64,000 nucleotides of DNA from Candidatus Heimdallarchaeota archaeon (GTDB taxonomy: Archaea; Asgardarchaeota; Heimdallarchaeia; Hodarchaeales; Hodarchaeaceae). Where the stretch lies: assembly GCA_020353515.1 (NCBI GenBank), contig CP070695.1:4394823-4458822 (forward strand). The letters are read 5' to 3'. Of this stretch, positions 8,524 through 11,738 are shown piece after piece. The notes under the pieces are model-generated. The model saw only the letters and a program-made list of their open reading frames with translations, had not been told where the DNA came from and did no database searches. The position numbers were made by a program, and so were the translations under genes. How positions within the stretch are numbered: the stretch's first letter is position 1; each line of letters begins with the position of its first letter.

Positions 8524-8931
8524 TCAGGCTTCTCTCCAGTCCCAGGATCCCGTTTTTCGCCACCGACAATAAGCCCAAATCCAGGTTTGAATCATTATGG
8601 CAGCATCATACGCTGTATATGAATAATGCCAGTCCTTTTGAGGTCTAAGGTAACAAATTTCTGTATGGCCGTATTTGTCCGTTCTATGCACATGATGGGT
8701 TTTATAAGATAACCTAGGCTCCGTAATCCATGCGCGAGGCGGGGCTGTTGGATAAGTATGGGGAAATTCAATTAACACGTGAAATCGCCCACATGCATAG
8801 GGACCTGTTGTTTCATATTTAACACGCACGCAGATATTTCCATTTTCCAAATAGAAAAAATCTTCTTTTGTTAATGAGGGAAATACTCCTTGTAATTCAT
8901 GAAGTTCCTGATCAACTGTTCGAGTCCGCAA
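8524..8931 (-). CDS. E2/UBC-like protein, paralog B (135 aa)
   Basis: IEFPHTYPTAPPRAW..EP....HHV....GHTEICYL....W UBC-like signature with candidate catalytic Cys. Start re-placed at TTG 8931 (GGTGA RBS, 7 nt after paralog A stop); this N-terminus aligns with paralog A. Confidence 0.75.
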   Translation of the reverse strand: MRTRTVDQELHELQGVFPSLTKEDFFYLENGNICVRVKYETTGPYACGRFHVLIEFPHTYPTAPPRAWITEPRLSYKTHHVHRTDKYGHTEICYLRPQKDWHYSYTAYDAAIMIQTWIWAYCRWRKTGSWDWREA

Positions 8932-8938
8932 CTTAAGG

Positions 8939-9379
8939 TCACCCACGGAATAAATGATCCCAAAATCCTGCTTCAGGGAAATCCCAATCTCCTGTTTTAG
9001 TCCAGCGACAGTAGGTTGTAAGCCATGTTTCAATCATCTTTGCAGCTTCATATGACGTATAACTTAGATGCCAGTCCTTTTTTGGACGTAAATAACAAAT
9101 TAATGCATGGCCAGTTTCATCCCACCGAAAAACATGGGGAGTCTTTTGTGGGATCCGAGGCTTTTGAACCCAAGCCTTTGGTGCGCTAATTGGATAATTA
9201 TAGGGATATTCAATAAGAACATCGAAAGAACCACAGGCAAATTTACCTGTAGTAATGAAGCTGACTTGAACACAGTAATTCCCATTTGGGAGTTTACGAA
9301 AATCTTTCCTTCTTATATCAGGAAATGTTTTTCGTAAGGGGTCAAGTTCCCGTTCAGGAATAGTTTGTCGTAGTAGCAT
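8939..9379 (-). CDS. E2/UBC-like protein, paralog A (146 aa, ends ...HLFRG)
   Basis: IEYPYNYPISAPKAW..KP.....PHV....GHALICYL....W UBC-like signature with candidate catalytic Cys. Confidence 0.78.
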   Translation of the reverse strand: MLLRQTIPERELDPLRKTFPDIRRKDFRKLPNGNYCVQVSFITTGKFACGSFDVLIEYPYNYPISAPKAWVQKPRIPQKTPHVFRWDETGHALICYLRPKKDWHLSYTSYEAAKMIETWLTTYCRWTKTGDWDFPEAGFWDHLFRG

Positions 9380-9388
9380 TCTTAAAGC

Positions 9389-10600
9389 CTATTCTATCTT
9401 TAATGCCTGAGTTCCATGAAAAGGACAGTTGGAATCTTTCTCCAAGTCTTCATAGTAATATAGCTCAAGTCCTTCAAATTTCACAGATGATTCATTAGAT
9501 TTCATTATCGTTCGGTTGAACCACATATAGAAGTTATGTGGGAAATGATATAGACTGTGTTCTCCCCCTGTGAGAAGAATGTCCAAGCAGAATTTCGAAA
9601 GCAATATGGTTAAATTGTCTACATCCAATCCTAATCCAGGTTGGGCTAGTTGTTCTTGCAACGTTCGATCATAACTAATTTTTTGTTCAAGTTCGATTGT
9701 AGTTGGGATTGCTTTAGTCTGAATAGTTCCATTCTCATCTGGTTTAGAATAAATACAATGATAACAGAAATCCTCATTCCTGGGGTCAACCTTGAACATT
9801 AATCCCCCCTTGACTCCATCAAAGGTTCCTGCATAAATAACAGGGATATTTAACTGATTGGAATGGATAAAGTCATTAATAGCATAATTAACGTCATGTT
9901 CTCCTGAAACTGCGGCAATTAAGTCCATATCCAGAAGAATACTATTAAAAAAGTCAAAATCAGCTTTTGTGTGTAGATCAAATTTACGTTCAACGGTCTG
10001 TATTTTTACATCGGGGATTCTTGCTTTAATATAATCTTTCACTGCTAATGTCTTGAATCGACCAAGATTATCGAGATCACAGATATGCCTGATAATGTTA
10101 TGAGTCTCCAAATGGTCATCATCGATAAAGATAAATTCTTTCACACCTGATTTAGCAAGATATAATGCTAGTAATGCTCCTCCAGACCCCATACCTATAA
10201 TAGCAACCCTTTTCTTATTCAATACTCTTAAGGGAGCTTCTTTTTCATCTATACGCACAAAGAGTCGATTAAGATCAATGTACTCAATATCAACATCGAT
10301 ATTAGAATCTTTATTCTCTTCATTATGGTAAACATCGGCTTTTAGGGTTGAGAGATTCTCTTCTACCATGATATGAATATATGGATACTCAAGACTTTTC
10401 GCTGTAATGATAGGTTCTTCCATCGTGGTAGTTCCAGTCGTTAATAGTCCAATTGGATACGTACTTTTTGAAAATGAGACCCCTGTTAAGTGACATACAG
10501 TGAAATTGTCATAAATCCTTCCATAAAGTAAATAAGTTCTATTTTGAGTTTTTAAATTCTTAAATTCATTTTCAAATGTAGGATAAATGATAATTTTCAT
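9389..10600 (-). CDS. ThiF/MoeB/E1-like adenylyltransferase with ~115-aa N-terminal extension
   Basis: VAIIGMGSGG, IDDDHLETHNIIRH, GRFKT, Zn ligands CYHC...CPFH; the region before PGLG lacks Cys. Confidence 0.88.
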   Translation of the reverse strand: MKIIIYPTFENEFKNLKTQNRTYLLYGRIYDNFTVCHLTGVSFSKSTYPIGLLTTGTTTMEEPIITAKSLEYPYIHIMVEENLSTLKADVYHNEENKDSNIDVDIEYIDLNRLFVRIDEKEAPLRVLNKKRVAIIGMGSGGALLALYLAKSGVKEFIFIDDDHLETHNIIRHICDLDNLGRFKTLAVKDYIKARIPDVKIQTVERKFDLHTKADFDFFNSILLDMDLIAAVSGEHDVNYAINDFIHSNQLNIPVIYAGTFDGVKGGLMFKVDPRNEDFCYHCIYSKPDENGTIQTKAIPTTIELEQKISYDRTLQEQLAQPGLGLDVDNLTILLSKFCLDILLTGGEHSLYHFPHNFYMWFNRTIMKSNESSVKFEGLELYYYEDLEKDSNCPFHGTQALKIE

Positions 10601-10611
10601 TGTTTACACCA

Positions 10612-11529
10612 TTATTTTACCATTAATTTCCACAATGGTTCTTTCAATAAATTAGAGATCTTTTCTTCTAATGTTGCTTTGAGTAGCTCAAGAAAAGGAT
10701 TTATTAGTTCTTCTTCATAGAGGACATTTGCAGGATGTTTTTCGATTGTAAACCTTTGTGATAAGTCCTGTGAAGAAATATCAATATAAATTTGGTCTTC
10801 TGGGAATTCAGGAGGGAATGAAATAAGAATTAAGAGCTCTAGGGTTTTTTTATGCTCCTCCGTTTCGATAACAACGTCATATGGAAAAGATAATATCGCT
10901 TCATTCGGTGTAGAGAAGAAATGATGAATATCTTCGATTTTAAATTTTGATTCAAAAACTTGGATTAATTCTCGTTTTATGGGGGACAGCTGTTCTTTAG
11001 TGATTCCCACATCTTCTGAATAATAAGATATATTACTCTCAGCTATCCTGAAAGTTTGAAAAGTGTTTTCAGTTCCTTCTTCATTTTTCTCTCTTCGATA
11101 CACTTCTGCAATCACTGTATGAGTATCTTCTATAGGTAAATCGATGATCAATGATACCACAGTATTTTTATGAGGATTAAGGGTAAAAAACTCTCTTATT
11201 TGTTGATGATCCCCGTAACTTGGTCCCCCGTAACCAAGATGTTTATGCCAATTCCCCAAATATAGTAACTTCTCTGTATCAAGAATTAATCTTGCATATT
11301 CAGGATTTATTTCAAAATAGGTATTATTCCTAATAGACTCTTCAACGGATGGGATATAGGTTTTTACAATCTTTATTAGTAATCCTGATTCATTATCATA
11401 AATCTTCCCAAACATCATTCCCCCTGTTTCTTTTCCATGCCATTTGGTGGATTCTTCTATCATTTCATTGAACACACTACGATTTAGTTCAACAAAAATG
11501 GTCTCAGCTTGATTCTCCAACAATGACAA
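10612..11529 (-). CDS. JAB/MPN+ (JAMM) metalloprotease fused to C-terminal UBC/RWD-like domain
   Basis: ETGGMMFG and YLGNWHKHLGYGGPSYGD (E...HxH...SxxD); C-term LLILISFPPEFPED resembles the UBC/RWD FPxxYP motif. Start re-placed at TTG 11529 after the purine-rich AGGAAGAGGG; the track start 11625 overlaps the upstream peptide ORF. Confidence 0.8.
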   Translation of the reverse strand: MSLLENQAETIFVELNRSVFNEMIEESTKWHGKETGGMMFGKIYDNESGLLIKIVKTYIPSVEESIRNNTYFEINPEYARLILDTEKLLYLGNWHKHLGYGGPSYGDHQQIREFFTLNPHKNTVVSLIIDLPIEDTHTVIAEVYRREKNEEGTENTFQTFRIAESNISYYSEDVGITKEQLSPIKRELIQVFESKFKIEDIHHFFSTPNEAILSFPYDVVIETEEHKKTLELLILISFPPEFPEDQIYIDISSQDLSQRFTIEKHPANVLYEEELINPFLELLKATLEEKISNLLKEPLWKLMVK

Positions 11530-11578: not shown

Positions 11579-11680
11579 TTAGTAATGTTTGGATATTGGA
11601 ACGGTATCTTTGTTCTCTTCGGCATCTTCAGTTGCTTTTTCTTTTGATTCTGTGTCTACTCTTTTTACTGGTCGGGGCAA
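11579..11680 (-). CDS. Unannotated 33-aa peptide MPRPVKRVDTESKEKATEDAEENKDTVPISKHY, first gene of the JAB-E1-E2-E2 operon
   Basis: Perfect AGGAGG (11694-11689) 8 nt before TTG 11680, TAA at 11581-11579, TATA-like element about 45 nt upstream. Confidence 0.7.
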   Translation of the reverse strand: MPRPVKRVDTESKEKATEDAEENKDTVPISKHY

Positions 11681-11721
11681 CGATTTAACCTCCTAAAAAC
11701 TACAATTAAGGGGAAAAAACC

Positions 11722-11738
11722 AATATTTATTAATCTTT
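11722..11738 (-). promoter_or_regulatory. Putative archaeal BRE/TATA promoter of the peptide-JAB-E1-E2-E2 operon
   Basis: Minus strand reads AAAGATTAATAAATATT, about 30 nt upstream of the AGGAGG RBS. Confidence 0.4.

What the first reader, a model, noticed from the sequence alone, without database searches (positions are those of the whole stretch)
11579..11694. Hidden 33-aa leader peptide, a candidate modifier or precursor for the E1/E2/JAB machinery
Seen: AGGAGG-8nt-TTG opens MPRPVKRVDTESKEKATEDAEENKDTVPISKHY*. The ORF track hides it by extending the JAB gene over it in another frame. It has a basic N-terminus, an acidic low-complexity middle and a short hydrophobic/aromatic C-terminus, and is too short and polar for a beta-grasp fold. 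Known: Pup is a disordered acidic tag, and ThiF-family enzymes such as MccB adenylate the C-terminus of short peptides encoded just upstream. Inference: the peptide's C-terminal carboxyl (Tyr, or an end exposed by JAB trimming) is adenylated by E1 and passed to an E2 Cys. That would be a Pup-like tag handled by ubiquitin-type enzymes.
Basis: partly seen in the sequence, partly recalled or inferred. Interest (0 to 1): 0.88.

Follow-up and report, generated by a model that had tools for sequence, protein, structure and literature searches.

The report
Peptide tag for archaeal E1-E2-JAB operon
An Asgard archaeon carries a real, extremely conserved 33-residue gene in front of a set of ubiquitin-type enzymes that has no ubiquitin of its own, so this tiny peptide, ending in Lys-His-Tyr instead of Gly-Gly, is probably the tag these enzymes attach; I found no paper on it and nothing has been tested at the bench.

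Summary
Confirmed: 11579-11680 (-) is a real gene, first of a peptide-JAB-E1-E2-E2 operon in a Hodarchaeales genome. In ten relatives it is 85-94% identical (JAB 43-65%, E1 57-78%), pS 0.62 against pN 0.05, with a conserved promoter and SD; the overlapping JAB extension is broken in all ten. It occurs only in genomes that hold this E1. All 14 Nitrososphaeraceae loci carry a 51-54 aa version; 45 of 46 database relatives end [TV][VI]PxxKH[YF] plus a 0-6 residue tail, as expected of a JAB cut site. Most related bacterial operons carry 50-75 aa ORFs ending W[FY], WG or FA in apparently the same register. The E1 resembles Cap2/Atg7, lacks the crossover Cys and has Tyr310 in 143 of 144 homologues, as Bub E1 does; both E2s keep His-Cys. 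Best reading (0.6): a ubiquitin-free peptide tag with an aromatic C-terminus. Binding, chemistry and target are inferred only. Not Pup, Ubl, CBASS, Bub or microcin by membership. This scan found the same family before on at least three other genomes.

The parts
11725..11738 (-). Archaeal BRE/TATA-like promoter block, about 45-58 nt upstream of the peptide start
   Evidence: Kept in 11 of 11 Hodarchaeales sequences while surrounding DNA varies; function inferred
11689..11694 (-). Shine-Dalgarno AGGAGG, 8 nt before TTG
   Evidence: Sequence; GGAG core kept in all ten relatives
11579..11680 (-). 33-aa peptide gene, candidate tag
   Evidence: 85-94% identity, pS 0.62 / pN 0.048; single copy, found only in genomes with this E1
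11582..11605 (-). Conserved C-terminal motif [TV][VI]PxxKH[YF], the predicted E1/JAB recognition tail
   Evidence: 45 of 46 relatives, followed by 0, 2, 4 or 6 further residues
11555..11571 (-). T-rich spacer after the peptide stop, possible partial terminator giving excess peptide
   Evidence: T-rich in all 11 sequences, not alignable base for base; function inferred
10612..11529 (-). JAB/JAMM metalloprotease (intact E...HxH...S..D) fused to a Cys-less second domain; true start TTG 11529 or 11523, not ATG 11625
   Evidence: Prok-JAB E 3e-5; CBASS JAB models best E 1.6e-10; catalytic residues invariant; extension broken in relatives
9389..10600 (-). E1: Cap2-linker/Atg7-like N-terminal domain plus ThiF adenylation domain, no crossover Cys
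   Evidence: ThiF E 6e-27; model pLDDT 84; Foldseek top hits Atg7 and Cap2; VIA aligns residues 1-385 on Cap2 171-600, Z 22.5, rmsd 7.0, 327 aligned
9671..9673 (-). E1 Tyr310 in the crossover loop, candidate oxyester nucleophile
   Evidence: Tyr in 143 of 144 homologues; any Cys in this loop in 1 of 144
8939..9379 (-). E2 paralogue A, His82 and Cys95, with a conserved 8-9 residue hydrophobic C-terminal extension
   Evidence: CBASS E2 models E 1.7e-7; UBE2W best solved match to the profile, E 3.7e-6
8524..8931 (-). E2 paralogue B (54% identical to A), His-Cys pair; start TTG 8931 by comparison with homologues
   Evidence: UQ_con E 1e-4

Best explanation
The peptide is the modifier of a self-contained, ubiquitin-free conjugation pathway. 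Shown: the gene is real, under strong purifying selection, always at the head of the operon, and the enzymes keep their catalytic motifs. Inferred: (1) the JAB protease cuts after KH[YF] where a tail is present and removes the tag from targets; here the chain already ends at Tyr33; (2) the homodimeric Cap2/Atg7-type E1 binds the last eight or so residues and adenylates the Tyr33 carboxyl with ATP; (3) with no crossover Cys, the acyl group passes through E1 Tyr310 as an oxyester, as in Bub, or goes straight to E2; (4) it forms a thioester on the E2 Cys; (5) E2 hands it to an amine on a target without an E3, most likely a protein lysine or N-terminus; the two E2s may serve different targets. The near-invariant body of the peptide implies a reader or chain formation beyond the enzymes. 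The biological role (stress or antiviral response, or turnover) is open.
For: Peptide is the best conserved gene of the operon with pS 0.62 / pN 0.048. 12 of 22 genus genomes have it, all with the E1; 0 of 8 without the E1; the two E1-positive genomes lacking it are cut off upstream by contig ends. 14 of 14 Nitrososphaeraceae loci have the peptide-JAB-E1-E2 order with the same first and last motifs; their E1s form one clade with the Hodarchaeales E1s, 100/99. Conservation stops after KH[YF]. Related operons elsewhere carry short ORFs ending KPxRW[FY], WG or GFA with 0-6 extra residues, and four separate lineages stop exactly on the aromatic residue (window, L059, L158, L178). A CD-NTase beside a related E2-E1 fusion ends RRYG, the same apparent register. 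Cap2 is known to adenylate the disordered tail of a non-ubiquitin protein (bioRxiv 2022.03.31.486616; PMC10097602). Bub E1 uses an invariant crossover Tyr (PMC11601596); Tyr310 is in 143 of 144 homologues. No other substrate is in the operon; the genome's two ubiquitin genes sit beside other E1s 0.4-0.5 Mb away; no SMODS cyclase found.
Against: Every characterised E1/E2 substrate I could find ends in Gly or Ala, and Cap2 rejects Ser, Val, Arg and Trp (PMC10097602); a Tyr/Phe end needs a remodelled pocket that I could not demonstrate. In the archaeal clade (31 of 144) the Asp of the T-D motif, the Mg-binding residue in MoeB/ThiF by my own knowledge, is Gly. The loop holding Tyr310 is unresolved in the model (pLDDT under 50). 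Archaeal and bacterial peptide profiles are not significantly alike (probability 2%), so the shared tail register is a pattern read by eye. Five more distant E1 loci (L085, L115, L159, L160, L162) showed no candidate peptide in the DNA fetched. No target or effector is encoded next to the archaeal operon.
Confidence: 0.6

Rival explanations
1. RiPP-like: the E1 (with E2 as carrier) activates the C-terminus, but the product is a modified free peptide (head-to-tail or side-chain cyclised, or capped with a small molecule or nucleotide), not a tag on another macromolecule.
For: Short precursor gene with its own promoter ahead of a ThiF-family enzyme; invariant M-P-R start as well as the tail, recalling MccB's reading of both ends of MccA (PMC11118369); MccB is among the fold matches.
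Against: E2s with His-Cys and an intact JAB are always present; no exporter, immunity or tailoring genes in the cassette, and flanks vary; no C-terminal Asn; N-terminal domain aligns with the Cap2 linker.
Confidence: 0.14
2. The peptide is a non-covalent partner: a decoy, inhibitor or adaptor that occupies the E1 or JAB site, while the true substrate is encoded elsewhere.
For: Bulky Tyr/Phe end is what blocks Cap2; the Mg-binding Asp is lost in this clade; some related E1 loci have no visible peptide.
Against: No other candidate substrate in the operon; the nine genome-wide frames with a similar tail include no convincing second gene; variable residues after a fixed motif are the signature of processed modifiers; the Gly-ended tail of E2 A is not conserved.
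Confidence: 0.14
3. Same pathway, different register: JAB removes the terminal Tyr (or His-Tyr) and the activated residue is His32 or Lys31.
For: An intact JAB is kept although most Hodarchaeales peptides have no tail to trim; in Nitrososphaeraceae the residue after KHF is nearly always aromatic too.
Against: In Bub, E2-CBASS and Cap3 the cut falls after the last conserved residue; W-[FY], W-G, W-A, F-A and Y-G ends line up with H-[YF]; JAB can be kept as the deconjugase.
Confidence: 0.1
4. Not a separate gene: N-terminal piece of JAB joined by frameshift or read-through, or conserved non-coding DNA.
For: In this genome the JAB frame is open over the 3' half of the peptide gene.
Against: Selection acts on the peptide frame; the JAB extension is broken in 10 of 10 relatives; spacing to the JAB start varies.
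Confidence: 0.02

Closest known systems
Type II CBASS conjugation module: Cap2 (E2-linker-E1) and Cap3 (JAB) acting on the CD-NTase tail (row 6b of Iyer et al. 2006, PMC1779556)
   Same: Linker-plus-adenylation E1 architecture; JAB, E1 and E2 best match CBASS models in PADLOC; substrate is a non-ubiquitin, disordered, conserved C-terminus; no E3.
   Different: No cyclase or effector; tail is a stand-alone 33-aa peptide; ends Tyr/Phe, not Gly/Ala; E2s are separate and duplicated; E1 has no crossover Cys; JAB carries an extra domain.
Bub (6E/DUF6527) pathway, Ye et al., PMC11601596
   Same: E1 lacks a crossover Cys and has an invariant crossover Tyr; JAB present.
   Different: Bub uses a beta-grasp Ubl ending in Gly, a Ser-based E2 and BubE; here E2 has Cys, there is no Ubl, and DUF6527 was not found in the genome. 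Equivalence of Tyr310 to BubCD Y370 is not shown structurally.
Autophagy E1 Atg7 with its two E2s Atg3 and Atg10
   Same: Top Foldseek hits; full-length alignment to Atg7; one E1 with two E2s.
   Different: Atg7 has a crossover Cys and acts on beta-grasp Atg8/Atg12; the E2s here are a genus-level duplication (54% identical) nearer UBE2W and CBASS E2 models; no orthology claimed.
Pup / pupylation
   Same: Small, polar, probably disordered tag attached through its C-terminus.
   Different: No GG[EQ] end; no Pup ligase found; different chemistry and enzymes; no sequence match.
MccA/MccB (microcin C)
   Same: Short peptide gene upstream of a ThiF-family adenylase; conserved Met-start motif.
   Different: No C-terminal Asn; E2s and JAB present; no exporter or immunity gene.

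Membership tests
Type II CBASS | CD-NTase and effector in the operon | tested here: not met
   Five-gene cassette with unrelated flanks; SMODS family not found in the 96% complete genome
Type II CBASS | Cap2-type linker plus adenylation domain | tested here: met
   VIA Z 22.5, rmsd 7.0, 327 aligned, model 1-385 on 7to3_A 171-600; Foldseek rank 4
Type II CBASS | E1 crossover-loop catalytic Cys | tested here: not met
   Cys in 1 of 144 loops
Type II CBASS | Substrate ends in Gly or Ala | tested here: not met
   KH[YF] in 45 of 46; window peptide has no Gly
Type II CBASS | Cap3-type JAB with intact metal site | tested here: met
Bub | Cys-less E1 with invariant crossover Tyr | tested here: met
   143 of 144; catalytic role not tested
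Bub | E2 with Ser in place of Cys | tested here: not met
   Invariant Cys
Bub | DUF6527 (BubE) gene and beta-grasp BubA | tested here: not met
   PF20137 not found in genome; no Ubl in the operon
Ubiquitin-like beta-grasp modifiers (Ub, SAMP, BilA) | About 70 or more residues of beta-grasp fold with C-terminal Gly | tested here: not met
   33 aa, no Gly, no Pfam/NCBIfam/PADLOC match; the peptide was not folded on its own
Pup | C-terminal GG[EQ] | tested here: not met
Pup | PafA/Dop ligase in the genome | tested here: not met
   PF03136 not found; control rang in Corynebacterium
Pup | Intrinsic disorder | tested here: inconclusive
   Composition only: 15 of 33 charged, 6 hydrophobic
MccA/MccB microcins | Precursor ends in Asn; exporter and immunity genes adjacent | tested here: not met
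   definition from PMC11118369
E1/E2 conjugation pathways in general | ATP-dependent covalent transfer of the modifier to E2 and a target | not testable with these tools
   Needs biochemistry

The most novel reading that the evidence does not exclude
A new class of protein modifier: a stand-alone peptide of 33-75 residues with an aromatic C-terminus, spread over Asgard archaea, soil ammonia-oxidising archaea and several bacterial phyla, attached by a Cap2/Atg7-type E1 through a tyrosine oxyester and a cysteine E2, and removed by JAB. It would be the smallest ubiquitin-type tag and the first ligated through Tyr/Phe. A bolder sub-case (about 0.07): in Hodarchaeales the E2 with the hydrophobic tail attaches the peptide to a membrane lipid and the other to proteins, paralleling Atg3 and Atg10.
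Probability: 0.45. Interest if true: 0.9.

Novelty: new variant of a known kind. Interest (0 to 1): 0.74.

Why it matters
It would show that E1/E2/JAB enzymes need neither the ubiquitin fold nor a small terminal residue, reduce the modifier to a short tail peptide, and join the Cap2 and Bub chemistries in one system. It sits in the archaeal order often placed closest to eukaryotes, next to but separate from a canonical ubiquitin system, with an Atg7-like E1 and two E2s. All five parts are small and the peptide can be synthesised, so the claim is directly testable, and an enzyme that ligates through an eight-residue tag could be a useful protein-labelling tool. Gene callers often miss or mis-start this gene.

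Tried and rejected
Complex prediction of the E1 adenylation-domain dimer with the peptide gave no answer (score 0.00); it is not counted either way. No RNA holder was listed for the locus. ESM Atlas gave no usable hit for the 33-aa or 52-aa peptide. No viral copy of the peptide was confirmed. A first E1 model from 12 sequences was poor and was replaced. Profile comparison of archaeal and bacterial peptides was not significant. The sigma-70 scan found nothing above chance and does not cover archaeal promoters. Rejected: the JAB N-terminal extension; the Gly-ended tail of E2 A as the substrate, since the Gly occurs only in the window and two close relatives; the E1 N-terminal domain as a dead JAB, since it aligns with the Cap2 linker and Atg7 N-terminal region, though that domain was not folded and searched alone; a mobile defence island in this genome, since flanks are metabolic and partly syntenic within subgroups. 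Eight literature searches found no description of this operon; subscription journals are not covered, and the published Ledvina et al. 2023 text could not be read.

Full report
1. Observation. On the minus strand AGGAGG (11694-11689) lies 8 nt before TTG 11680, which opens 33 codons closed by TAA at 11581-11579; the JAB ORF called from ATG 11625 overlaps it in another frame. Downstream and co-oriented are JAB (to 10612), a ThiF-type E1 (10600-9389) and two E2-like genes (9379-8939, 8931-8524) that are 54% identical. The genome is a 4.94-Mb single contig whose genus includes Candidatus Hodarchaeum mangrovi and Heimdallarchaeota B3_Heim.

2. The gene is real. All ten same-genus genomes with upstream DNA carry it at the same place, 85-94% identical, whereas JAB is 43-65%, E1 57-78% and the E2s 64-87% identical. 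Third codon positions vary in 30 of 32 columns, first and second in 7 and 4; mean pS is 0.62 and pN 0.048; all ten start with ATG; a BRE/TATA-like block about 50 nt upstream and a GGAG core are kept. The JAB-extension frame is broken in 10 of 10, so tblastn hits to it only reflect the conserved peptide DNA. A whole-genome search found the peptide once in 12 of 22 genus genomes, all with this E1, and in none of the 8 without it; the two E1-positive genomes lacking it have contigs cut upstream. Kin are not independent, so I attach no p-value. Among 301 Asgard genomes searched the E1 was found only in this genus plus two others, one of them a CBASS-like locus: a patchy distribution.

3. The family. 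All 14 Nitrososphaeraceae loci found with JAB carry a 51-54 aa ORF directly upstream, with the same M-P-R-x-x-K start and the tail T-I-P-x-x-K-H-F; their E1s and the Hodarchaeales E1s form one clade, 100/99 (midpoint root, long branches elsewhere in the tree). Of 46 database relatives, 45 end [TV][VI]PxxKH[YF], followed by 0 (13), 2 (1), 4 (24) or 6 (7) residues; other Hodarchaeales add S, F, RN or GN. More distant E1s (22-30% identity) in Chloroflexota, Kiritimatiellae, another Asgard class and unnamed contigs mostly have a 47-75 aa ORF in the operon ending KPxRW[FY], VW[AY], REWG or EGFA with 0-6 extra residues. Four lineages stop exactly on the aromatic residue. A CD-NTase-like gene next to a related E2-E1 fusion ends RRYG. 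Read by eye the register is aromatic (H, W, F, Y) at -2 and G, A, F or Y at -1. Caveats: archaeal and bacterial peptide profiles are not significantly alike, and five distant loci showed no peptide.

4. The enzymes. JAB keeps Glu, HxH, Ser and Asp in all ten aligned. Both E2s keep a Cys with a His upstream, the arrangement that is catalytic in E2-CBASS (bioRxiv 2022.05.25.493364); the best solved match is UBE2W. The E1 keeps the nucleotide-binding motifs and a CxxC...Cxx[CH] zinc site. Its model (pLDDT 84) ranks Atg7 and Cap2 first in Foldseek and aligns over residues 1-385 with Cap2 171-600 (Z 22.5, rmsd 7.0); on the adenylation domain alone UBA5, MoeB and ThiF score as high or higher. So it is built like Cap2 without the fused E2. 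The crossover loop has a Cys in 1 of 144 homologues and Tyr310 in 143; BubCD, which also lacks the Cys, uses an invariant crossover Tyr to form an oxyester (PMC11601596). In the archaeal clade the Asp of the T-D motif (the Mg ligand in MoeB, from my own knowledge; alignment) is Gly followed by an acidic residue, which is either compensation or reduced activity.

5. No other substrate in view. The operon has no Ubl, cyclase or effector and its flanks are ordinary and vary. The genome's two ubiquitin genes sit beside other E1s. SMODS, Pup ligase and DUF6527 were not found (genome 96% complete). The Gly-ended tail of E2 A is not conserved.

6. Mechanism. Most likely (0.6) the peptide is the modifier: JAB exposes or recycles the KH[YF] end, E1 adenylates it, the acyl group passes through Tyr310 or directly to the E2 Cys and on to a target amine with no E3. 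Cap2 gives the precedent for a non-ubiquitin disordered tail, and its E1 Cys is dispensable in vitro. All chemical steps are inferred. The main objection is that Cap2 substrates end in Gly or Ala and bulky ends block it (PMC10097602). Rivals: a free modified peptide (0.14), a non-covalent decoy or adaptor (0.14), activation at His or Lys after trimming (0.10), not a gene (0.02).

7. Comparison and novelty. It works most like the Cap2/Cap3 module with a Bub-like E1 loop, but fails defining features of CBASS, Bub, beta-grasp Ubl systems, Pup and microcin C (see membership tests). It fits none of the rows 6a-6e of Iyer et al. 2006 that I could read (PMC1779556), and eight searches found no paper. 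I file it as a new variant of E1/E2/JAB conjugation with what may be a new class of modifier. This scan has reported the same family on other genomes (e1-5444473, e1-5454917, e1-5553582) and His-Tyr-ended small proteins in bacterial E1/E2/JAB sets (e1-2080108, e1-2384320; not checked here); my Cap2-like reading was recorded before I saw them, and they are not counted as support.

8. Verdict. Observation confirmed; interpretation partly supported; interest 0.74.

Noticed in passing
window 8939-8970 (-), end of E2 A: All Hodarchaeales E2 A proteins carry an 8-9 residue hydrophobic extension (AGxxDHxF-like) that E2 B lacks; possibly a membrane- or partner-binding helix. The terminal Gly is not conserved.
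   Followed up: partly
window 11680, 11529/11523, 8931 (-): Peptide, JAB and E2 B all appear to start at TTG in this genome; the mechanical ORF list over-extends JAB (337 aa) and E2 B (169 aa).
   Followed up: yes
L015 10-2394 (G042, same class): An Asgard type II CBASS-like locus: CD-NTase-like gene ending RRYG, an E2-E1 fusion whose crossover loop also has no Cys, then a JAB-like gene.
   Followed up: partly
L178 318-461 (G117, another Asgard class): A 47-aa ORF ending VWY-stop heads an E2-E1-JAB operon; its E1 was not placed on my tree.
   Followed up: partly
L052 1-91: A Nitrososphaeraceae variant with a tail (P-V-T-K-H-Y plus three residues) closer to the Hodarchaeales form; cut by the contig start.
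   Followed up: partly
L059, L157, L163: Chloroflexota-type operons add an SPFH/band 7 protein, a HerA/FtsK-like ATPase and membrane proteins, hinting at membrane targets.
   Followed up: no
L062, L064, L126: Kiritimatiellae-type operons have a peptide ending GFA plus 2-3 residues, an E2-like protein in which I saw no matching catalytic Cys motif, and an adjacent ClpB-like ATPase gene.
   Followed up: no
L159, L160, L162: E2-E1-JAB sets with no visible peptide gene; in L159 and L160 the E2 has a long Cys-rich N-terminal part and L159 has a transposase inserted before E1.
   Followed up: partly
G000 C1 3885441-3887440 and 3975897-3976953: Two canonical ubiquitin-plus-E1 gene pairs elsewhere in the genome.
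   Followed up: partly
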